Translations under genes and position numbers: made by a program
Part shown: one piece after another, positions 32,975 to 39,479 of the stretch
How positions within the stretch are numbered: position 1 is the first letter of the stretch
How the letters are laid out: the number at the start of each line of letters is the position of its first letter
Notes under the pieces: model-generated
Database searches by the model: none
The model's input: the letters and a program-made list of their open reading frames with translations, nothing else
Told to the model about the DNA's origin: nothing
Origin: an uncultured Gammaproteobacteria bacterium
Lineage (GTDB): Bacteria > Patescibacteriota > Patescibacteriia > Patescibacteriales > GWC2-42-12
Direction of reading: 5' to 3'
NCBI GenBank assembly: GCA_964526325.1
Contig: CAZGKM010000002.1
Coordinates: forward strand, 14,725-78,724
DNA: 64,000 nucleotides

Positions 32975-32991
32975 AATAGAAACACACAAAA

Positions 32992-33024
32992 AACACCGCG
33001 GCTTAAGCGGTGTTTTATGTTATT
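32992..33024 (+). terminator. rho-independent terminator after rel
   Basis: aacaccgc-ggcttaa-gcggtgtt stem-loop followed by a T-rich tract. Confidence 0.6.
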
Positions 33025-33084
33025 TTGGCAGTTTAATTTTTTCTTTTAATTTCTTTCAACAGTTTTTATCCTCGCTTTAGATTT

Positions 33085-33270
33085 TTATTTTAAAATTTTT
33101 TGATAGCATGGAAAACAATATGACCTATTCCCAGAAATTACGGTTCCGCATTTTTTGCATTTACGCCGCCCAAAACTAACAAAACTTCTGCTTTTATTTT
33201 TTTCGTGGCACGAATAACATGCAGAAAATATTCCTGGTGTAACTCTGCCACATTTGCCACATTTCCCCAT
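33085..33270 (-). CDS. small zinc-ribbon protein
   Basis: 61 aa with two CxxC…CxxC pairs (CGKCG…CYSC; CKKCG…CFPC). It is co-directional with, and immediately downstream of, the ImmA-like gene. Confidence 0.35.
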   Translation of the reverse strand: MGKCGKCGRVTPGIFSACYSCHEKNKSRSFVSFGRRKCKKCGTVISGNRSYCFPCYQKILK

Positions 33271-33271
33271 A

Positions 33272-33880
33272 TTATTTATTTAAATCGGCTAAAGCTATTT
33301 CAAGTGGCGTAGGGCTAACGCCAAAATATTTTGCTATCGGTCCGGCCATATATTCATTAAGCGTCTTAGGATCTATTTTTGAAATATCAATGTTATTATC
33401 AAACAAAAATTTATTTAATACTTTAATTTTTATTTCTCTTAATTTATCCCTGGGTATCAATAAATAATTGGCAAAATTATTTGCTTGCACTTCTATAAAA
33501 TGGTGTTGATCGCCGGTTAATTCGTCATGAAATTTAGTAATATCGTCAGAATCTTTGATTTTAAACCGTTCAAAAAGATTTTTATGCAAAATTAAATGGC
33601 CCACTTCGTGAGCATAGGAAAATCTTAATCTGTTGTTTCCAGCTCTATACGACTCATCATCCACTACCATGTGTTGCCAATCAGATGTTATAAATGCATC
33701 AAAACCTTTTAATTTAAGTAGCTCGGGCTTTGTTACGATATTAATTTTCAACTTTACATCAATGATTGTCTCTATATCTACAGGAATTGTATTATTCCAA
33801 TATTTTTCTCTGAATATTTCTGCCGCTTTATAAATATCAGCCTTGGACAAATAAGGCACCATGAAATTTTGAAAATTCAT
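33272..33880 (-). CDS. ImmA/IrrE-family zinc metallopeptidase
   Basis: HEXXH motif in YAHEVGHLILH with the DUF955/ImmA layout. It overlaps or abuts the XRE gene upstream. Confidence 0.7.
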   Translation of the reverse strand: MNFQNFMVPYLSKADIYKAAEIFREKYWNNTIPVDIETIIDVKLKINIVTKPELLKLKGFDAFITSDWQHMVVDDESYRAGNNRLRFSYAHEVGHLILHKNLFERFKIKDSDDITKFHDELTGDQHHFIEVQANNFANYLLIPRDKLREIKIKVLNKFLFDNNIDISKIDPKTLNEYMAGPIAKYFGVSPTPLEIALADLNK

Positions 33881-33884
33881 TTTT

Positions 33885-34265
33885 TTATTTGTTATTTTTT
33901 ATTAACTTGAATAAATCTTCAATTTCTTCCTTTGTCGGCTTTTCATTTCTGACAGTTCTAAAAAATGCCGGCATTAATTTTAATGCTTCCGCGTCCGAAA
34001 GAATGTCTTGCGGAATTATCCCCTGAGCAATTTGTGCTTCATCTATAAATTCACGCATTTCTTCACTCCCGTTTTTTAGCCCTAATATTTTCGCCCATCT
34101 CGCCAATATTTTTTCATCCGCCGGCGGCGGAATTAAGCCTCTTTCAACTTTACTCCAGTTGCTTGGATCATATCCAGTTTCTTTACAAACATTCCTTAAG
34201 CTTAATTCTTGCTTAATTCTTAAATCTTTAAGCATTTCGCCGAATTTTTGTAGATTTTTTTTCAT
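33885..34265 (-). CDS. XRE-family helix-turn-helix transcriptional regulator
   Basis: N-terminal HTH (…FGEMLKDLRIKQELSLRNVCKETGYDPSNWSKVERG…). Confidence 0.7.
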   Translation of the reverse strand: MKKNLQKFGEMLKDLRIKQELSLRNVCKETGYDPSNWSKVERGLIPPPADEKILARWAKILGLKNGSEEMREFIDEAQIAQGIIPQDILSDAEALKLMPAFFRTVRNEKPTKEEIEDLFKLIKNNK

Positions 34266-34301
34266 TGATTCACCACCTTTCTAGTTTTTTATAAATTAAA
34301 T

Positions 34302-34327
34302 AAGTGTGGTATTATTTTACCACACTT
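34302..34327. promoter_or_regulatory. perfect 10-bp inverted repeat operator (aagtgtggta-ttattt-taccacactt) in the divergent promoter region
   Basis: Seen directly in the sequence. It lies between the XRE gene start (34265) and the TTGACA -35-like box at 34349. A strong RBS aaggagga sits at 34409-34416, before the ATG at 34421. Confidence 0.6.
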
Positions 34328-34420
34328 AAAATATTTGTAAAGTTATTATTGACATTTATATTGTATTGATATAACATCAATAATTAAACAAAATTTTGTT
34401 CATTTCATAAGGAGGAAATT

Positions 34421-34918
34421 ATGGCATCGTTAGAAAACGTGAAAGGCAGAATAGCGGAAATGGCGGTTGAAGCAATCTTTATGGCGTCAGGACATACTAT
34501 ATACCAAACCGGCATAGAGTATCGTATGCCATCGCTTTTTCATTGCGAAGTTAAACCGAAAAAAAATTTCTATGACAAGACAACGGATAAGCTGTGTGAC
34601 ATTCCTGACTTTGCTTTACCTGGTTTCAACGGAGAATTAGAATATATTGAGGTAAAATTTAGGCAATATGGGAACTTCTACAAAGAAGATAAACCCCTGC
34701 TTGAAAAACTCGCCAAATTCTGGGAACCTACTATTATTATAGTTTCATTAAAGAACGGCCAAGCTCATTTTACGAAAGTTGAACCACCCTACATAAAAGA
34801 TGGCAGTTGTGCACCGCTAAACGGAATATCAATTTTTGAAGTTGTTCGTTGGGCGCTTGATCCTTTATTACTTCCGTATTGTACAAAATTTGTAGAGATG
34901 TTGAATGAAATAAAATAG
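34421..34918 (+). CDS. hypothetical protein with Hjc-like / restriction-endonuclease-like PD-(D/E)xK motif arrangement
   Basis: N-terminal GRIAEMAVEAIFMASGH (G-x-x-x-E helix), then …DIPDFAL… and ELEYIEVKFRQ (a D…E-x-K arrangement). It has a strong SD and sits downstream of the operator palindrome. Confidence 0.4.
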   Translation: MASLENVKGRIAEMAVEAIFMASGHTIYQTGIEYRMPSLFHCEVKPKKNFYDKTTDKLCDIPDFALPGFNGELEYIEVKFRQYGNFYKEDKPLLEKLAKFWEPTIIIVSLKNGQAHFTKVEPPYIKDGSCAPLNGISIFEVVRWALDPLLLPYCTKFVEMLNEIK

Positions 34919-34934
34919 CAAACAGTTGCTACTC

Positions 34935-34970
34935 GCGTCTTGAATTAAATTTCGAGACGCTTTTTATTTT
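34935..34970 (+). terminator. rho-independent terminator
   Basis: gcgtcttgaa-ttaaat-ttcgagacgc stem followed by tttttatttt. Confidence 0.55.
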
Positions 34971-35514
34971 ATTTAAATTAGAATATTTCTTATAAAATTA
35001 TTTAATATTAGCTAATATTGTAACTTATAATTAATATATTTATCCGCAACTATTTGACATATTTTTTTCAATAAAATCAATTATTTTAGCTAATTTTAGA
35101 AAAAAACAGCAATTTTTAATTAAAAATAGAAAAAAACAGCATGCTATAATATTAATAGAGTACTTTCTCGTTCCTCGGAAACGAGCTAATTAACCCGATC
35201 TGTAGTCTGAGGCGTAGATCGAAAAAATATATACGTATGGGGAAAGAGTCAAAAACTTTTCTTATCGGTCGCAAAGCTGACAAAGGAACTTTAGTCAGTG
35301 TTGAATACGCTCGAGCTCATAAAAAAAGTTGTATTGTAGAAAGAATGCCAAAAAAAGGATTCGGCGACACAAAATAATTATTCAACTATCAAACGGTTAG
35401 AAGAAAGGCTTGGTACCAAACGAGCGACTCACCTCGAGAAAATATTAAAGTTAAGTAATTCCAGATTTGAGAGGGTTAAAAGATTGCTTGTGTTATAGCT
35501 CCTGACTCTACCAT

Positions 35515-35548
35515 AAAGCCCGCCAATAAAAGGCGGGCTTTAAAATTT
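35515..35548. terminator. bidirectional stem-loop terminator
   Basis: aaagcccgcc-aataaaa-ggcgggcttt followed by T-rich sequence. It lies directly after the stop of the minus-strand J-domain gene and at the end of an ORF-poor plus-strand segment. Confidence 0.55.
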
Positions 35549-36168
35549 TAGAATCTTCTTTTAAACTTTCTTTCTATTTCTTCCTGCATTTTTCTAATTC
35601 TTTCGCTCGCATCATTTAAAGTTTTATTAACTCTTACATTTTCACTGCTGTGATTTAATTTTCTTATTAAATCTTCCTTCATTTTATCTATGCGCGCCTG
35701 AGCTTCATCAATAGTTTTTTGAGTATTTACATAACCGCTACCGCCCCTCACTCGCTCATGAATTTCTCTTTGGATGGCTTCCATTTTTTCTTTGTGTTTC
35801 CTCTCGGTTTCCCTTAAACTTTCTTCGGCTTTTCTTAGTTCTTCTTTCGCTTTTTGAGCTTTTTCCACGGCCTTAAAATAATCTTGAAAAAAATCATCAA
35901 ATTTTTTTTCTGGTTTCGCTTTTTCAAGCTTTAAATTATAATTTTTTCTTTTATTAGGATCGCTCAATACTTCATAAGCTCCGCTTATCTCCCTAAATTC
36001 GTCTTCCCTGCCTTTATTTTCCGGAATATCCGGGTGGGTTTCTTTAACGCGTGTTCTGTAGGCTAATTTAATTTCGTCGTCCGTAGCGTCCGGCAAAACG
36101 CCAAGAATCTCATAATAATTTTTTGGCTGTCTTACTTCTCTATTTGATTCAAAATTTTCATGCCCCAT
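35548..36168 (-). CDS. J-domain (DnaJ-like) protein with long coiled-coil tail
   Basis: YYEILGV…AYR…HPD…E…F…I…AYEVLSD is the J-domain HPD signature. The rest is a charged coiled coil. It is 16 nt downstream of the Type IIG gene on the same strand. Confidence 0.7.
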   Translation of the reverse strand: MGHENFESNREVRQPKNYYEILGVLPDATDDEIKLAYRTRVKETHPDIPENKGREDEFREISGAYEVLSDPNKRKNYNLKLEKAKPEKKFDDFFQDYFKAVEKAQKAKEELRKAEESLRETERKHKEKMEAIQREIHERVRGGSGYVNTQKTIDEAQARIDKMKEDLIRKLNHSSENVRVNKTLNDASERIRKMQEEIERKFKRRF

Positions 36169-36183
36169 ATTGTTATTTAAAAT

Positions 36184-38730
36184 TTATTTTCCTTCTATAA
36201 TTTTTATCTCCCCCTCCCCCAACCCATACAACTTATAAACTTCTTCATCAATTTTTTTATCAGTTTTAGAAATTTCATCTTTAATTTTCTGCCATTGGTC
36301 GGAATTTTCGGCTATTTTTCTAAACTCTTTATTTAAGTCTAAAATTTTATCAACCAATAGCACAATTTTCTTTTGCCCTAACTCTGACACTTTAATTAAA
36401 GGCAATTTTTCAACTTGAAAAACTCTCAGCTCAATAAAGCCACCCCTTAATGCAGTTTCGGAATATTTTTGCCTTACATAATAAGTTAGTAATTTAGAAT
36501 TGAGTAAACCCAAAATATATTTATTATCAGTATCATCTTCTGTCTTAATACAATAAGTAGTATTAATAGGATAATAACCAAATTCGTCTATACCAGCTTC
36601 CAAATTATAACAAAGTTTTTTCATTATTATTTTATTTTTAGAAAAATCCATTTCTCGCGCATTGCTCAAACTACCTTTATTATGTGTATTCAGATAATAT
36701 CTGCTTACTTGACGATTGCTAATAATAATATGATCTCCATCAATAATATTGCTTGAAGCGGCTAGCGGTCTCCATGCCTTAATTTTTATCACTTCTTTTA
36801 TATTTTCGCATTTTGAAATAATCGAATTTTTTTTCGTGAATCCGAAAGTTTCTAAAAGATTATAATCACCAACAACTTTTAATTTAGAATTTTTTATTTT
36901 ATTCAAAACTATGACCACGGGGTATACACTTGCATCTGGAAAAACGTTGAAACCAGAATAATCCTGAAAAGCAGATAAAATTGAATTTTCTAAAATTACT
37001 TTTCTTAATTCTAGGCCATATTTTGTAATCAAAAATTTATTAGGAGTAATAAAACTTAAAAAGCCAGCCGCTTTTAAAATACCCAATGATTTTTCTATAA
37101 ACAATATATATAAATCATATTGTTCCTTGGCTGTTAAATACTTTTTTTCAAAAAATATTTTATCATCCTGCGCTAATTCCCTTGCCCCGACATACGGCGG
37201 ATTACCAATCACACAATCAAATCCTCCCTGTTTAAAAACCTCCGGAAATTCTTCCTGCCAGTTAAAGGGATTTTTATCACGATAATTCTTGCCAAAATAT
37301 TTTTCCAGCTCCTCGTCCGTTCCGGAAATTAAAGAATTGCCGCATTCTATGTTATGGCCTAAATTAGGCAGCTTGGTCTGGCTGTCAAAAGTATTTAAGA
37401 GCAAATTCAGGCGCGCTAGTTCCACGGCCTGCTGGTCCAAATCCACGCCGTAAATGTTATTCTCTAAAATCTGAATCTTTAAATAGCCATCCGGCTTGGC
37501 GCCAAATTCTTCGTACTTTTTTATTAAAAAATTCATGGCCGCGACTAAAAACGAGCCCGAGCCGCAGGCCGGATCTAAAATCTTTATTTTTTGCAGATCG
37601 TTTATGCTTTGGCACTTATCCAGTACCGGACCGAGAGCGTTAGCTACGATATAATCCACAATATATTTAGGCGTATAATAAATTCCCTGCTCTTTGCGCT
37701 TTTTTAAATTTTTTCCGGTAGTTTCTTTTTCTTTGGATTTTTTTAACTGATGCCCTAAATAATTTTCATAAACATTGCCTAAAACGTCGGCCGGAATAAC
37801 CGAAAAGTCATATTCAAAATAATTCTTTTTGCCATATAAAATATTAATTACTTTTTCCGTGGCGCCGCCAAACTCTTCCCATTTTTCAAATGGGTGCTCG
37901 TCAAACATGTTGGAATTATATATTTTATCCAATTCTCTGAATTTTTTTATCATTGCCTGATAAGGGCTTACCTGCCCGGCTTTACCGCTTGATTTATATT
38001 CATGGATTAACGGCATTAAAGTCGGCGGTTCAATTTTTTTATCTTCGGCGCTGCGGATAAAAATTAAACGATTTAATAATTTTTGTACACCTTCATCTAT
38101 TAGATGCGGATCAACTTTTTCATTCCATTGAATAAAGGCATCGGTCAAAATTTCCCGGCAGTCGTTTAAATCTTTAGCTAAAGTTTCCGTAACCGATATT
38201 TTCTGCAATTTTTTGCCGACTTTTTCCGCTTCTTTATCTAAAATATCGTCGCCAAACGCTTCTTTGGAAAGCCGCCACAGTTCGTCAAAACGGGTTAAAT
38301 ATTCTTCGTAATTAAAAGATAAGTATTTCTTACCTGCTAAAGTTTTTTCCGGCGACAAAGCGTTAAAAATAATCAAACTTTCAAAATCGGTTAATACCGC
38401 CCAAGTCACGCCCTTATTCCAAGAATAGCGGATGGCCTGTTTAGCGAATTCTTCGCGGTGCAAATCAACCGATAATTTTTTAGCCTCCAAATAAAATTTT
38501 ATCCGGCCGTTTAAATAAAAACCGTAGTCTACGCGGTCGCCGGAAATCTGCTCTTCTAAAGTTATTTCTTCTTTACTTGAAAAATTCCACCCTAGCGCCT
38601 CAAACAACGGCTCAATAAAACCTCTCTTAGTTTCCTCTTCGCTATATCGTGAAATCTTCCCGGTGGCCTTCTCGACTTCGTATTTACTGATTAAATCTTG
38701 AATTTTAATTTTAGCCTGATCTTTATTCAT
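36184..38730 (-). CDS. Type IIG restriction-modification enzyme (MmeI-like: N-terminal nuclease + gamma-class N6-adenine methyltransferase + TRD)
   Basis: The N-terminus …EEETKRGFIEPLFEALGWNF… is MmeI/HsdR-N-like (D…E-x-K follows). Motif I is ILDPACGSGSFLVAA and motif IV is GNPPYVG. At 848 aa it is a single polypeptide. Confidence 0.75.
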   Translation of the reverse strand: MNKDQAKIKIQDLISKYEVEKATGKISRYSEEETKRGFIEPLFEALGWNFSSKEEITLEEQISGDRVDYGFYLNGRIKFYLEAKKLSVDLHREEFAKQAIRYSWNKGVTWAVLTDFESLIIFNALSPEKTLAGKKYLSFNYEEYLTRFDELWRLSKEAFGDDILDKEAEKVGKKLQKISVTETLAKDLNDCREILTDAFIQWNEKVDPHLIDEGVQKLLNRLIFIRSAEDKKIEPPTLMPLIHEYKSSGKAGQVSPYQAMIKKFRELDKIYNSNMFDEHPFEKWEEFGGATEKVINILYGKKNYFEYDFSVIPADVLGNVYENYLGHQLKKSKEKETTGKNLKKRKEQGIYYTPKYIVDYIVANALGPVLDKCQSINDLQKIKILDPACGSGSFLVAAMNFLIKKYEEFGAKPDGYLKIQILENNIYGVDLDQQAVELARLNLLLNTFDSQTKLPNLGHNIECGNSLISGTDEELEKYFGKNYRDKNPFNWQEEFPEVFKQGGFDCVIGNPPYVGARELAQDDKIFFEKKYLTAKEQYDLYILFIEKSLGILKAAGFLSFITPNKFLITKYGLELRKVILENSILSAFQDYSGFNVFPDASVYPVVIVLNKIKNSKLKVVGDYNLLETFGFTKKNSIISKCENIKEVIKIKAWRPLAASSNIIDGDHIIISNRQVSRYYLNTHNKGSLSNAREMDFSKNKIIMKKLCYNLEAGIDEFGYYPINTTYCIKTEDDTDNKYILGLLNSKLLTYYVRQKYSETALRGGFIELRVFQVEKLPLIKVSELGQKKIVLLVDKILDLNKEFRKIAENSDQWQKIKDEISKTDKKIDEEVYKLYGLGEGEIKIIEGK

Positions 38731-38835
38731 GTTTTTACTTTATCATTTCTCCGCTAATATTTCAACTTTACAAAACTTACCTTGTAAGATATTATTAATA
38801 TATGAAAGCTAACAATCATTGAGAGGAGGCAGGCT

Positions 38836-39402
38836 ATGGGGAAAGTGATTGATTTAAGCACCTTAAAAAATCGGCGGACAAGTTCGGAAACAGAGAATAT
38901 TCAAGGAGGCGACTTAACCGAACTGCTTAAAACGGCGACAACTTTGAGGCAAGAAGCGGTAGAAATTAAAGAAACCATTGTGGTCATGAATTTTGGTAAA
39001 TTTAAACGCCTACTGGAGGCCAGGCTTTCGGCCATTATTCTGAAAAGAAAAAATATCGGAGTTGATTTTTTTCTATGCAGCAATTATATCGCAGCCTTGC
39101 TGTCCGACCTCGGCAAAACCCCTCCCGAAAGCTGGTACGCGGTTGATTACTTTATGAAAGCCGCAACCGAAGACAAACCGACCGCCTTAAGAGAAGGAGC
39201 GAACATCTGTTTTTTAATTTGTGCCGTTTTCCCGGAAAAAGGCAAGGTCAGATGCATGAAACTGACAGATTACGAAACTCTTGGCCAAGGGTTATACTAC
39301 AATTATTACGGTCAAACCGGAGCGATTGTCGCCTATTTCATGAGTAAGCAATTTCAGCCGATGGTTGAAATAACTAAGGAATGCCTTCATGAACTAAAAT
39401 AA
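38836..39402 (+). CDS. hypothetical protein
   Basis: 188-aa ORF with a plausible SD (gagaggagg) and a terminator immediately downstream. I recognise no family. Confidence 0.4.
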   Translation: MGKVIDLSTLKNRRTSSETENIQGGDLTELLKTATTLRQEAVEIKETIVVMNFGKFKRLLEARLSAIILKRKNIGVDFFLCSNYIAALLSDLGKTPPESWYAVDYFMKAATEDKPTALREGANICFLICAVFPEKGKVRCMKLTDYETLGQGLYYNYYGQTGAIVAYFMSKQFQPMVEITKECLHELK

Positions 39403-39417
39403 ATCCATACACTCTAT

Positions 39418-39479
39418 ATCAGCACTTTATGTGCTGATTTTTTTATAAAAAAACACCGCTTAAAAAGCGGTGTTTTTTT
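39418..39479. terminator. two adjacent stem-loop terminators (convergent genes)
   Basis: atcagcac-tttat-gtgctgat+T7 and aacaccgc-ttaaaaa-gcggtgtt+T7. The second resembles the terminator at 32992. Confidence 0.65.

What the first reader, a model, noticed from the sequence alone, without database searches (positions are those of the whole stretch)
33085..34918. CapH/CapP-like regulatory pair (XRE HTH + ImmA/IrrE metallopeptidase) with a perfect operator palindrome controlling a PD-(D/E)xK-like gene
Three features point to a regulated module.
- The divergent promoter region holds a perfect 10-bp inverted repeat (34302-34327, aagtgtggta/taccacactt) between the XRE gene and a TTGACA box.
- The XRE and ImmA genes abut, as in ImmR/ImmA and CapH/CapP systems that de-repress mobile-element or defense genes in response to a signal, often DNA damage.
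- The controlled gene (34421-34918) has a strong SD and a G-x-x-x-E … D … E-x-K arrangement reminiscent of Hjc-type/restriction-like nucleases.

The pair therefore appears to gate an effector whose nature is unknown.
Basis: partly seen in the sequence, partly recalled or inferred. Interest (0 to 1): 0.68.

Follow-up and report, generated by a model that had tools for sequence, protein, structure and literature searches.

The report
Self-repressing XRE–ImmA switch beside nuclease
A repressor/protease gene pair of a well-known regulatory kind sits next to an uncharacterised DNA-cutting enzyme and a restriction system in a small defence island of a CPR-type bacterium; every part is real, but they look like separate modules packed together, not one dedicated system.

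Summary
These are an XRE HTH gene (33885-34265, -), an abutting ImmA/M78 metallopeptidase gene (33272-33880, -), a perfect palindrome (34301-34328), and a divergent 165-aa gene (34421-34918, +).

- **Nuclease:** the E13...P62-D63...E77-V-K79 motif is conserved across the gene's family. A confident AlphaFold model is closest to Hjc-type PD-(D/E)xK nucleases.
- **Operator:** the palindrome is conserved. Related XRE(-ImmA) cassettes from 27 CPR loci carry TTGACA-N11-TGTGGTA-N6-TACCACA, with the -10 box of the XRE's own promoter inside the palindrome. Its best-supported role is therefore self-repression.
- **Cassette neighbours:** the neighbouring genes differ between loci, and the upstream gene is co-directional in 25 of 27.
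- **Module boundary:** DNA homology to a close relative covers only 33270-34347. It stops 2 nt before the nuclease promoter.
- **Nuclease family contexts:** the family lies near Type I or Type IIG restriction systems in 5 of 9 contexts and near this cassette in 2 of 9.
- **Island:** everything sits in a 6.5-kb low-GC insertion at a RelA/YqeY hotspot.

CapH/CapP-like gating of the nuclease fits the local geometry but is unproven and is not a family trait. This is an ordinary member of a known regulator class beside an unnamed nuclease family that recurs near restriction systems.

The parts
32982..39468 (.). About 6.5-kb low-GC variable (defence) island inserted between the RelA/SpoT gene and YqeY
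   Evidence: Relatives without an island have RelA directly followed by YqeY (e.g. L138, L139, L145-L149). blastn homology to L138 stops at 32981 and resumes at 39469. GC is 0.28-0.36 over most of the island and rises at its right end, against 0.41-0.44 in the flanks.
32990..33016 (.). Bidirectional intrinsic-terminator-like hairpin ending both the RelA/SpoT gene and the XRE-ImmA-ZnR transcript
   Evidence: 10-bp stem with 5 GC pairs and T runs on both strands.
33085..33270 (-). 61-aa double zinc-ribbon ORF (four CxxC pairs). It starts 1 nt after the ImmA stop codon and is probably co-transcribed.
   Evidence: Pfam DZR at E 1.1e-5, just below the gathering score. No homolog was found in any related cassette locus. 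It lies outside the cassette homology block.
33272..33880 (-). ImmA/IrrE-type (M78, COG2856) zinc metallopeptidase, 202 aa, consisting of the peptidase domain plus a short tail
   Evidence: Pfam Peptidase_M78 at 3.3e-8. PADLOC capP at 2e-18. PDB CapP 7t5t at 1.1e-9 over the peptidase domain only. HEvGH and the downstream E-x-Q-A-N motif are conserved in 23 homologs.
33885..34265 (-). XRE-family HTH repressor, 126 aa, with an N-terminal HTH and a conserved C-terminal region
   Evidence: Pfam HTH_31 at 3.7e-9. PADLOC capH at 5.4e-6. The YDPSNWSK-ERG helix is at least 90% conserved except for one position (I in over 60% of sequences, V here), and the C-terminal PAFFR motif is conserved in 27 homologs.
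33270..34347 (-). The discrete cassette unit: ImmA, XRE, the operator and the XRE gene's own promoter
   Evidence: This is the only island DNA shared with L165 (72% identity over 1089 nt), apart from patches inside the Type IIG gene. The homology ends 2 nt before the nuclease -35 box and excludes the ZnR ORF.
34301..34328 (.). Operator: perfect 11-bp inverted repeat TAAGTGTGGTA-N6-TACCACACTTA, with core TGTGGTA-N6-TACCACA
   Evidence: The same core lies upstream of XRE homologs in five loci that were found independently of the pattern (L003, L005, L007, L008, L165), and in about 20 further CPR genomes.
34314..34341 (-). Predicted promoter of the XRE-ImmA operon: -35 TTTACA at 34341-34336, 16-nt spacer, TG-extended -10 TAAAAT at 34319-34314, which lies inside the operator
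   Evidence: 10 of 12 matches, with TG. A -35 box at a fixed N11 distance from the operator is exact TTGACA in 16 of 27 XRE loci, against 2 of 97 pattern matches without an XRE gene.
34349..34377 (+). Predicted promoter of the nuclease gene: TTGACA, 17-nt spacer, TAACAT. It sits back to back with the XRE promoter and 21 bp from the operator edge.
   Evidence: 10 of 12 matches. This is a consensus match only, with no transcript data.
34411..34416 (+). Shine-Dalgarno sequence AGGAGG of the nuclease gene
   Evidence: Read directly from the sequence.
34421..34918 (+). 165-aa PD-(D/E)xK nuclease (Hjc-like core) belonging to an unnamed family
   Evidence: 92 representative homologs and 354 proteins at E <= 1e-5, none with a Pfam domain. 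D63, E77 and K79 are invariant. The AlphaFold model has pLDDT 90.8. Top Foldseek hits are Hjc, the SPARDA nuclease and influenza PA-N, and NOV_C, RecU and VRR-NUC.
34935..34960 (+). Intrinsic-terminator-like hairpin after the nuclease gene
   Evidence: 10-bp stem followed by TTTTTATTTT.
35548..38730 (-). Type IIG restriction-modification enzyme (36184-38730) with a co-directional J-domain/coiled-coil gene (35548-36168). This is a neighbouring module of the same island.
   Evidence: Pfam Eco57I at 2e-45 and N6_Mtase at 4e-24, and DnaJ at 4e-22. PADLOC REase_MTase_IIG at 8.6e-121.

Best explanation
**The cassette (33270-34347).** This is a self-contained, self-repressing XRE repressor / ImmA-type metalloprotease cassette. 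It belongs to a family scattered through CPR (Patescibacteria) genomes.

- **Inferred from sequence comparison:** an XRE dimer binds the palindrome TGTGGTA-N6-TACCACA (34301-34328). That palindrome encloses the -10 box and the start region of the cassette's own promoter, so binding shuts off transcription of XRE, ImmA and probably the small zinc-ribbon ORF.
- **Inferred by analogy** with ImmR/ImmA, DdrO/IrrE and CapH/CapP: a stress signal, most likely linked to DNA damage, activates the protease. The protease cleaves the repressor in its conserved C-terminal part, which relieves repression.

**The 165-aa gene.** It encodes a genuine PD-(D/E)xK, Hjc-like nuclease. It is a separate module with its own promoter, Shine-Dalgarno sequence and terminator. 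Elsewhere its family is found mostly next to Type I and Type IIG restriction-modification genes.

**The island.** The cassette, the nuclease, the DnaJ-Type IIG operon and a 188-aa orphan gene are independent modules. They are packed into a 6.5-kb low-GC island at a RelA/YqeY insertion hotspot.

**Possible coupling.** In this genome the repressor bound 21 bp upstream of the nuclease -35 box may also dampen the nuclease promoter. That would be a local, opportunistic coupling and not the purpose of the pair. It has not been shown.
For: **Domains and catalytic residues.**

**Operator.**
- It is unique in the window and far beyond chance.
- It is present with the same register in five loci that were found by protein homology or synteny and not by the pattern: L003, L005, L007, L008 and L165.
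- A genome scan with the 20-mer found about 20 further CPR loci where an XRE homolog starts just downstream, nearly always followed by ImmA.
- A -35 TTGACA box sits 11 nt upstream, so the -10 TAAAAT/TATAAT falls inside the palindrome. It is exact in 16 of 27 XRE loci, against 2 of 97 matches without an XRE gene.
- The DNA-recognition helix YDPSNWSK-ERG is at least 90% conserved except at one position, which fits the conserved operator.
- There is one operator per locus, one in the 64-kb window, and one in 815 kb of relatives' DNA.

**Autonomy of the cassette.**
- Neighbouring genes differ in essentially every locus. The upstream gene is co-directional in 25 of 27.
- Homology with L165 is confined to 33270-34347.

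**Nuclease.**
- Family alignment, AlphaFold model (pLDDT 90.8) and fold matches.
- Weak TnsA_N and VRR_NUC Pfam hits in family members.
- Contexts next to HsdR (L010), an MmeI-type IIG enzyme (L132), a IIG enzyme at the same hotspot without the cassette (L199), and directly upstream of hsdM-hsdS-hsdR (L217-L220).

**Island and hotspot.**
Against: - No binding, cleavage or transcript data exist. The promoters are consensus matches in AT-rich DNA: 20 promoter-like sites were found against 11 expected.
- Most operator-bearing loci were retrieved with the operator pattern itself, so its presence there is by construction. Only five loci, plus the fixed -35 spacing, are independent evidence.
- The nuclease family adjoins this cassette twice (window and L027, E 4.7e-24). 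That is far more than expected for a rare family and argues for some functional or ecological link.
- The divergent layout with the operator upstream of the partner's -35 box is exactly the layout reported for CapH/CapP, so co-regulation in this genome cannot be excluded.
- The neighbourhood tables rest on a crude ORF caller of my own.
- The signal that activates a 202-aa ImmA without a sensor domain is unknown.
Confidence: 0.68

Rival explanations
1. The XRE-ImmA pair is a CapH/CapP-type regulator dedicated to the divergent nuclease. XRE represses the nuclease promoter, and ImmA cleaves XRE on DNA damage or infection and releases a toxic or defensive nuclease.
For: - The arrangement is divergent, with a shared 155-bp control region and back-to-back -35 boxes.
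- CapH is reported to bind a 22-bp site upstream of the -35 box of its divergent CBASS operon, and capH-capP lie on the opposite strand to the regulated operon.
- capP and capH are the best PADLOC hits, and CapP is the best PDB hit.
- The nuclease family adjoins the cassette a second time, in L027.
- RecB/Cas4-like nucleases lie close to the cassette in L061 (adjacent) and L165 (one gene away).
- The setting is a defence island.
Against: - The operator embeds the XRE gene's own -10 box and does not overlap the nuclease promoter.
- 25 of 27 family loci have no divergent partner.
- The cassette homology block ends 2 nt before the nuclease -35 box.
- In L027 a terminator, a separate promoter and the absence of an operator separate ImmA from the nuclease.
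- The nuclease occurs with a Type IIG enzyme and without the cassette at the same hotspot in L199.
- ImmA lacks the GAF/ssDNA-sensing C-terminal domain of CapP and has K where the switch cysteine sits.
Confidence: 0.27
2. The pair is a selfish toxin-antitoxin-like addiction module. It would be the Xre-COG2856 type II toxin-antitoxin pair predicted by Makarova et al. 2009, with the protease as toxin and the XRE protein as antitoxin and autorepressor.
For: - It is a stand-alone two-gene cassette with autoregulation, scattered positions and a discrete recombining unit.
- Xre-COG2856 is listed among predicted toxin-antitoxin-like mobile modules.
- NCBIfam gives a weak hit to 'spr1629 family repressor/antitoxin' (far below the cutoff).
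Against: - The characterised members (ImmA, IrrE, CapP) are repressor-cleaving regulators, not toxins.
- XRE-only variants that lack ImmA exist in L032, L069, L090 and L102. That is the reverse of what is expected if the protease were the maintained toxin.
- Synteny is stable within clades (L005/L032 and L059/L085).
Confidence: 0.08
3. The pair is a genome-wide stress regulator of the DdrO/IrrE type, whose regulon carries the same palindrome elsewhere in the chromosome.
For: - The operator and recognition helix are conserved across CPR lineages.
- The repressor has a DdrO-like architecture: about 125 aa, with an HTH followed by a conserved C-terminal domain.
Against: - There is only one operator in the 64-kb window, and one in 815 kb of relatives' DNA.
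- No CPR genome appeared twice in the (capped) genome scan.
- The cassette is absent from most close relatives and lies in an accessory island.
- Whole genomes could not be scanned.
Confidence: 0.07
4. The pair is the leftover immunity region (ImmR/ImmA-like) of a degraded prophage or integrative element.
For: - An integrase lies near related cassettes in L007 and L090, and a TraG/VirD4-like gene lies in L007.
- There are PHROG hits to phage repressor and metalloprotease families.
- The island has low GC.
Against: - The island contains no integrase, phage structural gene or tRNA.
- The flanking genes are conserved core genes in dozens of relatives.
- The island content is defence-type (Type IIG restriction-modification enzyme, nuclease).
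- The nuclease has no match in 50,697 phage records.
Confidence: 0.05
5. The palindrome is only a transcription-terminator-like hairpin or a chance inverted repeat in AT-rich DNA.
For: The consensus scan lists it as terminator-like on both strands.
Against: - It lies upstream of both genes and not after any gene.
- It is conserved in sequence and in register with a -35 box in many loci while the flanks diverge.
- The chance expectation is 0.02.
Confidence: 0.02

Closest known systems
CapH/CapP (regulators of CBASS and other defence operons; Lau et al. 2022 preprint 10.1101/2022.04.27.489752; PDB 7t5t)
   Same: - An XRE-type HTH repressor is paired with an adjacent M78 metallopeptidase.
- They are the best PADLOC and PDB matches.
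- In this window there is a divergent neighbour gene with the operator upstream of its -35 box, in a defence-island setting.
   Different: - The protease is 202 aa with no GAF or second domain and no cysteine switch. The match covers CapP residues 53-150 of 291.
- The family's default context has no divergent operon (25 of 27 loci).
- The operator embeds the repressor's own -10 box.
- The repressor is 126 aa and only weakly similar to CapH (5e-6).
ImmR/ImmA of Bacillus subtilis ICEBs1 (and phage Xre/ORF2-type pairs)
   Same: - The gene order is repressor then small COG2856 protease in one autoregulated operon, with a divergent promoter next to it.
- The protease is small and lacks a sensor domain. 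From my own knowledge, ImmA is about 170 aa.
- Some relatives (L007, L090) have an integrase close by.
   Different: There is no integrase, excisionase or conjugation/phage gene in this island. The flanks are core genes. No sequence-level match to ImmR or ImmA was specifically demonstrated.
DdrO/IrrE (PprI) radiation-desiccation response of Deinococcus
   Same: An XRE repressor of about 125-130 aa whose C-terminal domain is needed for dimerisation is cleaved by a COG2856 protease, and it binds palindromic operators.
   Different: IrrE carries a GAF-like domain and is unlinked to ddrO, and DdrO controls a multi-gene regulon. Here the genes are adjacent, only one operator was found, and the cassette is accessory.
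Xre-COG2856 'mobile stress-response / toxin-antitoxin-like' two-gene modules (Makarova, Wolf & Koonin 2009, PMC2701414)
   Same: It is an abundant, mobile two-gene Xre + COG2856 operon, often on islands, predicted to cleave an Xre repressor.
   Different: That class is defined only by gene pairing. This CPR subfamily adds a fixed promoter-operator design and is not linked to RelE or PIN toxins here.
Hjc archaeal Holliday-junction resolvases (PDB 4tkd, 1gef, 2wcw) and other minimal PD-(D/E)xK nucleases (RecU, VRR-NUC, NOV_C, SPARDA DREN, TnsA-N)
   Same: It shares the K-G-x-x-x-E helix, then PD, then E-x-K catalytic arrangement and the core fold. These are the best Foldseek hits. Family members give weak TnsA_N and VRR_NUC Pfam hits.
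   Different: - TM-scores are only 0.35-0.5 with 13-17% identity.
- It has a helical insert of about 25 residues (residues 32-59) and a C-terminal helix that Hjc lacks.
- No Pfam family is matched by the protein itself.
- Its distribution is sporadic and island-borne and does not fit a housekeeping resolvase.
Accessory genes embedded in restriction-modification loci (e.g. PrrC in the EcoprrI hsd operon; from my own knowledge, not tested here)
   Same: The nuclease family recurs inside or beside Type I and Type IIG restriction-modification gene clusters (L010, L132, L199, L217-220, window).
   Different: There is no sequence or fold relation to PrrC, and no evidence of any functional interplay with the restriction enzymes.

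Membership tests
Peptidase M78 / COG2856 (ImmA/IrrE) | Pfam PF06114 match above the gathering score | tested here: met
   33.8 bits against a cutoff of 22, E 3.3e-8.
Peptidase M78 / COG2856 (ImmA/IrrE) | HEXXH zinc-binding motif plus a downstream glutamate ligand | tested here: met
   H-E-V-G-H and E-V-Q-A-N-N-F-A are present. They align with H96/E97/H100 and E129 of CapP and are conserved in 23 homologs.
XRE-family HTH repressor | Cro/C1-type HTH domain above the Pfam threshold | tested here: met
   HTH_31 at 37.2 bits against a cutoff of 27.
XRE/COG2856 repressor-protease switch (ImmR/ImmA, DdrO/IrrE, CapH/CapP) | The repressor binds a palindromic operator in a promoter | tested here: inconclusive
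   A perfect palindrome conserved in register with a -35/-10 promoter lies upstream of about 27 homologs. Binding itself cannot be tested with these tools.
XRE/COG2856 repressor-protease switch (ImmR/ImmA, DdrO/IrrE, CapH/CapP) | The protease cleaves the repressor in response to a signal | not testable with these tools
   This needs co-expression or in-vitro cleavage assays. Only the conserved C-terminal region of the XRE protein (PAFFR motif) hints at a target.
CapH/CapP | The pair lies upstream of, and on the opposite strand to, the regulated defence operon and shares its promoter region | tested here: inconclusive
   This is met locally: the nuclease gene is divergent with a 155-bp shared region. 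It is not a property of the cassette family, where 25 of 27 loci lack a divergent partner, and the homology block ends before the nuclease promoter.
CapH/CapP | CapP has a C-terminal GAF/ssDNA-sensing domain (central HTH plus GAF in Thauera CapP) | tested here: not met
   The protein is 202 aa. The CapP alignment covers only residues 53-150 of 291, and the PADLOC capP profile is matched over positions 4-120 of 242. About 50 residues remain after the peptidase domain.
CapH/CapP | Cysteine-switch loop (present in about 33% of CapP proteins, so not obligatory) | tested here: not met
   Reading the alignment against the CapP numbering given, the column of the CapP 'FQC' cysteine, taken to be Cys113, holds lysine here ('FKIKD').
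ImmR/ImmA of integrative elements or prophages | Located in a mobile element with integrase and excision or lytic genes under the divergent promoter | tested here: not met
   The island has no integrase or phage genes. The flanks are core synteny.
DdrO/IrrE-type global regulon | Several operator copies upstream of stress or repair genes | tested here: inconclusive
   One site in 64 kb and one in 815 kb of relatives' DNA. The whole genome is not available.
PD-(D/E)xK nuclease superfamily | Conserved E...(P)D...(D/E)xK catalytic residues on the alpha-beta-beta-beta-alpha-beta core | tested here: met
   D63, E77 and K79 are invariant. E13 and P62 are at least 90% conserved in 50 sequences. The model has pLDDT 90.8, with strands 64-67, 73-80 and 104-111 carrying the motif. 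All top fold hits are PD-(D/E)xK nucleases.
Hjc Holliday-junction resolvase family | Sequence membership (Pfam Hjc) and a close structural match | tested here: not met
   The protein has no Pfam hit. The Hjc family does not appear among the members' weak hits, which are TnsA_N in 17 of 50 and VRR_NUC in 9 of 50. Foldseek gives TM 0.35-0.5 at E 2e-4 or worse.
Type II toxin-antitoxin module | One product is toxic and the other neutralises it | not testable with these tools
   Only context is available. The XRE-only variants argue weakly against this.

The most novel reading that the evidence does not exclude
The 165-aa protein would define an unnamed family of Hjc-like PD-(D/E)xK nucleases. At least 354 proteins in CPR bacteria, Bacteroidota and Methanosarcina belong to it, and none has a Pfam domain. 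The family would be a recurrent passenger of Type I and Type IIG restriction-modification loci and would act as a new restriction-linked defence accessory or back-up effector. In this CPR genome it would have been captured under a damage-responsive XRE-ImmA switch whose operator-in-promoter design is conserved across the CPR radiation.
Probability: 0.22. Interest if true: 0.55.

Novelty: new member of a known kind. Interest (0 to 1): 0.35.

Why it matters
- **Regulation in CPR bacteria.** These organisms are uncultured and their regulation is almost unstudied. This work yields a precisely defined promoter-operator-repressor-protease cassette (TTGACA-N11-TGTGGTA-N6-TACCACA) that recurs across many CPR lineages and could be tested directly in a heterologous host.
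- **Genome organisation.** It identifies a RelA/YqeY insertion hotspot that collects defence modules in one CPR lineage.
- **A candidate defence gene.** It flags an unnamed, structurally confident PD-(D/E)xK nuclease family that keeps appearing beside Type I and Type IIG restriction systems.
- **Limits.** None of this overturns current understanding. The regulatory pair is a routine member of the Xre/COG2856 class, and the attractive idea of a gated effector is not supported as a general rule.

Tried and rejected
**Searches that gave nothing useful**
- The word-index homology search with the nuclease found only itself. The exhaustive phmmer search was needed to find relatives.
- The single-sequence AlphaFold model was unusable, with pLDDT 40. 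The alignment-based model was used.
- PDB sequence and profile searches for the nuclease gave only noise.
- The nuclease had no hits in PADLOC, NCBIfam or PHROGs and no match in phage genomes.
- The search for related loci with alignments A1 and A2 failed because no stretch was conserved enough.
- Rfam and tRNA scans of the window were empty.
- No paper mentions both Patescibacteria and ImmA.

**Readings rejected**
- The palindrome as a terminator.
- The nuclease co-transcribed with XRE-ImmA in L027; a terminator and a separate promoter lie between them.
- The XRE gene next to a reverse transcriptase in L131 as a homolog of this XRE; there was no hit at E < 1 and no operator.
- Extra operator half-sites near other window genes; the count was at chance level.
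- A prophage origin.

**Looked at briefly and not resolved**
- The same palindrome also occurs in Rhizobiaceae, Pedobacter and Acetobacteraceae.

Full report
**1. The observation**

All ORFs are present as described.
- The XRE gene (33885-34265, minus strand, 126 aa) and the ImmA gene (33272-33880, minus strand, 202 aa) lie 4 nt apart.
- The XRE protein passes the Pfam threshold for HTH_31 and the ImmA protein passes it for Peptidase_M78.
- A 61-aa ORF with four CxxC pairs (33085-33270) starts 1 nt after the ImmA stop codon. It scores just below the Pfam threshold for a double zinc ribbon.
- A bidirectional terminator-like hairpin at 32990-33016 closes this transcription unit and the convergent RelA/SpoT gene.
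- On the other side lies a 165-aa ORF (34421-34918, plus strand). It has an AGGAGG ribosome-binding site and a terminator-like hairpin at 34935-34960.

The inverted repeat is exact. It extends to 11-bp arms, TAAGTGTGGTA-N6-TACCACACTTA, at 34301-34328. Even with three mismatches allowed it is the only such site in the 64-kb window, against 0.02 expected.

**2. The palindrome is a conserved operator embedded in the XRE's own promoter**

- On the minus strand, a -35 TTTACA (34341-34336) and a TG-extended -10 TAAAAT (34319-34314) bracket the palindrome, so the -10 box lies in its spacer and arm.
- ImmA homologs at 42-62% identity exist in metagenomes and in CPR genomes named Kuenenbacteria or 'Patescibacteria group'.
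- Four homologous loci retrieved through the protein alone (L003, L005, L007, L008) all carry TTGACA-N11-TGTGGTA(A/T)6-7ACCACA directly upstream of a homologous XRE gene.
  - In about 20 of them an XRE homolog (E 1e-42 to 1e-53) starts just downstream, usually followed by ImmA. These genomes include Falkowbacteria, Parcubacteria, Paceibacterota, Saccharibacteria, Moraniibacteriota and Nealsonbacteria.
  - The operator's presence in these loci is by construction. The -35 box was not part of the query, yet it sits at the same 11-nt distance.
  - It is exact TTGACA in 16 of 27 XRE loci, against 2 of 97 pattern matches without an XRE gene.
- A close relative found through RelA synteny (L165) has an almost identical promoter-operator.
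- The XRE recognition helix YDPSNWSK-ERG is at least 90% conserved except at one position, which is I in over 60% of the sequences and V here. A C-terminal PAFFR motif is also conserved.
- ImmA keeps HExxH and the downstream glutamate.

The inference is that an XRE dimer occludes its own -10 box and start site, giving autorepression. Cleavage of XRE by ImmA is inferred only by analogy with ImmR/ImmA, DdrO/IrrE and CapH/CapP.

**3. The 165-aa protein is a real PD-(D/E)xK nuclease of an unnamed family**

- It has no Pfam, NCBIfam, PHROG, PADLOC or PDB sequence match.
- Exhaustive phmmer found 92 representatives. A profile search found 354 proteins at E <= 1e-5. They come from CPR bacteria, Bacteroidota and Methanosarcina, and all are annotated as hypothetical.
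- In 50 aligned members G31, D63, E77 and K79 are invariant. K8, G9, E13, E33, P62, F64, V78 and R81 are at least 90% conserved.
- With this alignment AlphaFold gives pLDDT 90.8 and pTM 0.87.
- Top Foldseek hits are Hjc resolvases, the SPARDA nuclease domain and influenza PA-N in the PDB. In viral models they are bunyavirus cap-snatching endonuclease regions, NOV_C, RecU, Hjc and VRR-NUC.
- TM-scores are only 0.35-0.5, so this is a distant and distinct branch. It has a helical insert at residues 32-59 and a C-terminal helix.
- Family members give weak TnsA_N (17 of 50) and VRR_NUC (9 of 50) Pfam hits.

**4. Whether the pair is dedicated to the nuclease**

*Evidence that it is not an obligate system*
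- Across 27 distinct cassette loci the neighbouring genes are unrelated to one another. Examples include Mur ligases, tRNA synthetases, a penicillin-binding protein, NUDIX and ribosomal protein L20.
- The upstream gene is co-directional in 25 of the 27. Only the window and L063 have a divergent neighbour.
- Four loci have XRE without ImmA.
- blastn between the window and L165, whose RelA is 93% identical, aligns only 33270-34347 within the left part of the island. That block covers ImmA, XRE, the operator and the -35 box. It stops 2 nt before the nuclease TTGACA and excludes the zinc-ribbon ORF.

*Evidence for some link*
- The nuclease family adjoins the cassette a second time, in L027 (profile E 4.7e-24). 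This is too often to be chance for so rare a family.
- Even there, a terminator and a separate extended -10 promoter lie between ImmA and the nuclease, and no operator is present.
- CapH is reported to bind upstream of the -35 box of its divergent operon, so the window's geometry is compatible with control. The operator edge lies 21 bp from the nuclease -35 box.

I rate local co-regulation at roughly one in four to one in three.

**5. What the nuclease family is found with**

Of nine informative contexts, five have restriction-modification genes within about 2 kb:

| Locus | Nearby genes |
|---|---|
| Window | Type IIG enzyme, 1.3 kb away |
| L010 | two tandem paralogs directly after a Type I HsdR |
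| L132/133 | downstream of an MmeI-type IIG enzyme |
| L199 | a IIG enzyme, no cassette |
| L217-220 (Flavobacteriia) | 9 bp upstream of hsdM-hsdS-(hipBA)-hsdR |

The other four contexts are the XRE-ImmA cassette (L027), an unrelated XRE gene plus a reverse transcriptase (L131), a GIY-YIG nuclease (L134), and no defence genes (L136).

**6. The setting is a defence-island hotspot**

- Eighty relatives share the core order p588-RelA-YqeY-p111-HisRS-signal peptidase-LytR. In most of them RelA abuts YqeY or p111.
- The window has a 6.5-kb insertion (32982-39468) with GC 0.28-0.36 over most of its length, against 0.41-0.44 in the flanks.
- Other relatives carry different cargo at the same junction:
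  - L165 has a Type IIG enzyme, AbiU2, a LexA-like protein plus MazF, a RecB/Cas4-RNase H nuclease, Bro-N/PDC-S13, XRE-ImmA and MazG.
  - L137 has a Type IIG enzyme, Mrr_cat and a 986-aa protein.
  - L199 has the nuclease, DUF4325, a 272-aa protein and a Type IIG enzyme.
- There is no integrase, tRNA or phage gene in the island, so a prophage remnant is unlikely.

**7. Comparison with known systems, and verdict**

- The pair is a member of the Xre/COG2856 repressor-protease class, which has been known since 2008-2009.
- By sequence the protease is nearest to CapP. It lacks the GAF sensor domain and the cysteine switch, so it should not be filed as CapP. In size it resembles ImmA.
- The operator-in-promoter design conserved across CPR lineages is a neat and, as far as one full-text search showed, undescribed detail.
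- The nuclease family is unnamed and recurs next to restriction-modification genes.
- The finding is real and correctly read at the level of parts. As a system, it is best described as separate modules juxtaposed in a defence island.
- Interest is moderate to low at 0.35. The most novel tenable reading has a probability of about 0.22.

Noticed in passing
window 35548-36168 (-) and 36184-38730 (-): A 206-aa J-domain (DnaJ, E 4e-22) plus coiled-coil protein lies 15 bp downstream of a Type IIG restriction-modification enzyme and is co-directional with it. It appears to share the enzyme's operon, which is an unusual partner for a restriction enzyme.
   Followed up: no
window 32982-39468; loci L137, L165, L199, L154, L166, L170, L187, L192, L194, L201: The RelA/SpoT-YqeY junction is an insertion hotspot in this CPR lineage. 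Relatives carry different cargo there, including Type IIG enzymes, AbiU2, LexA-like plus MazF, RecB/Cas4-RNase H, Bro-N/PDC-S13 and Mrr_cat. Most relatives have none.
   Followed up: partly
L217-L220 (gene at 1427-2068 in L217); L010 2799-3904; L132 5001-5483; L199 5608-6102: The unnamed PD-(D/E)xK family of the 165-aa protein recurs inside or beside restriction-modification loci. It lies 9 bp upstream of hsdM in Flavobacteriia, occurs as two tandem paralogs after HsdR, lies after an MmeI-type enzyme, and lies near a Type IIG enzyme at the RelA hotspot.
   Followed up: partly
window 33085-33270 (-): A 61-aa ORF with four CxxC pairs (double zinc ribbon) starts 1 nt after the ImmA stop codon. 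It is absent from all related cassette loci and lies outside the cassette homology block. Its function is unknown.
   Followed up: partly
window 34961-35547: A non-coding stretch of about 590 bp with GC near 0.30 lies between the nuclease terminator and the DnaJ gene. It contains a direct repeat AGAAAAAAACAGCA (about 35100 and 35128), a TATAAT-like box, a short hairpin, and a 46-aa ORF (35237-35377, +). There is no Rfam match.
   Followed up: no
L032, L069, L090, L102: Operator plus XRE is present without ImmA. In L032 the layout is otherwise syntenic with L005, which has ImmA. This implies either loss of the protease or a repressor that works alone.
   Followed up: no
L031 5300-5341: A Flavobacteriaceae genome carries two tandem operator copies 22 bp apart, upstream of a more distant XRE-ImmA pair (E 5e-22 and 3e-23).
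   Followed up: no
L061 2437-3939 and L165 13544-15037: A protein of about 500 aa combining a RecB/Cas4-like nuclease with an RNase H-fold domain lies next to the cassette in L061 and one gene away in L165. In L061 a superfamily-1 helicase-like gene lies on the other side of the cassette; that call rests on reading its sequence only. The L061 protein was called a homolog from its sequence only and was not aligned to the L165 protein.
   Followed up: no
L007 6362-7312 and 9275-10606; L090 4184-5143: A tyrosine integrase lies close to the cassette in two CPR loci, and a TraG/VirD4-type coupling protein lies a few kb away in L007. This hints that some cassettes ride on integrative or conjugative elements.
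   Followed up: no
L012-L130: about 90 loci from other phyla, e.g. L015 3587, L023 4581, L028 5699, L057 473: The same TGTGGTA-N6-TACCACA 20-mer recurs at conserved positions in Rhizobiaceae, Pedobacter and Acetobacteraceae, with no homolog of this XRE gene nearby. In Acetobacteraceae it sits about 11 nt from a TTGACC box, and in Pedobacter it probably lies inside a gene. This is unexplained.
   Followed up: partly
L131 297-2746: In a Harrisonbacteria contig a member of the nuclease family lies 640 nt upstream of an unrelated XRE gene that overlaps a reverse-transcriptase gene (RVT_1). This may be a retron- or DRT-like defence locus.
   Followed up: no
L027 1742-3614: About 2.4 kb from the L027 nuclease lie a LexA-like S24 peptidase gene and a Y-family polymerase gene (IMS), forming a umuDC-like pair. 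The bin is labelled 'uncultured Gammaproteobacteria', yet it carries the cassette otherwise seen in CPR genomes here, so the label may be wrong.
   Followed up: no
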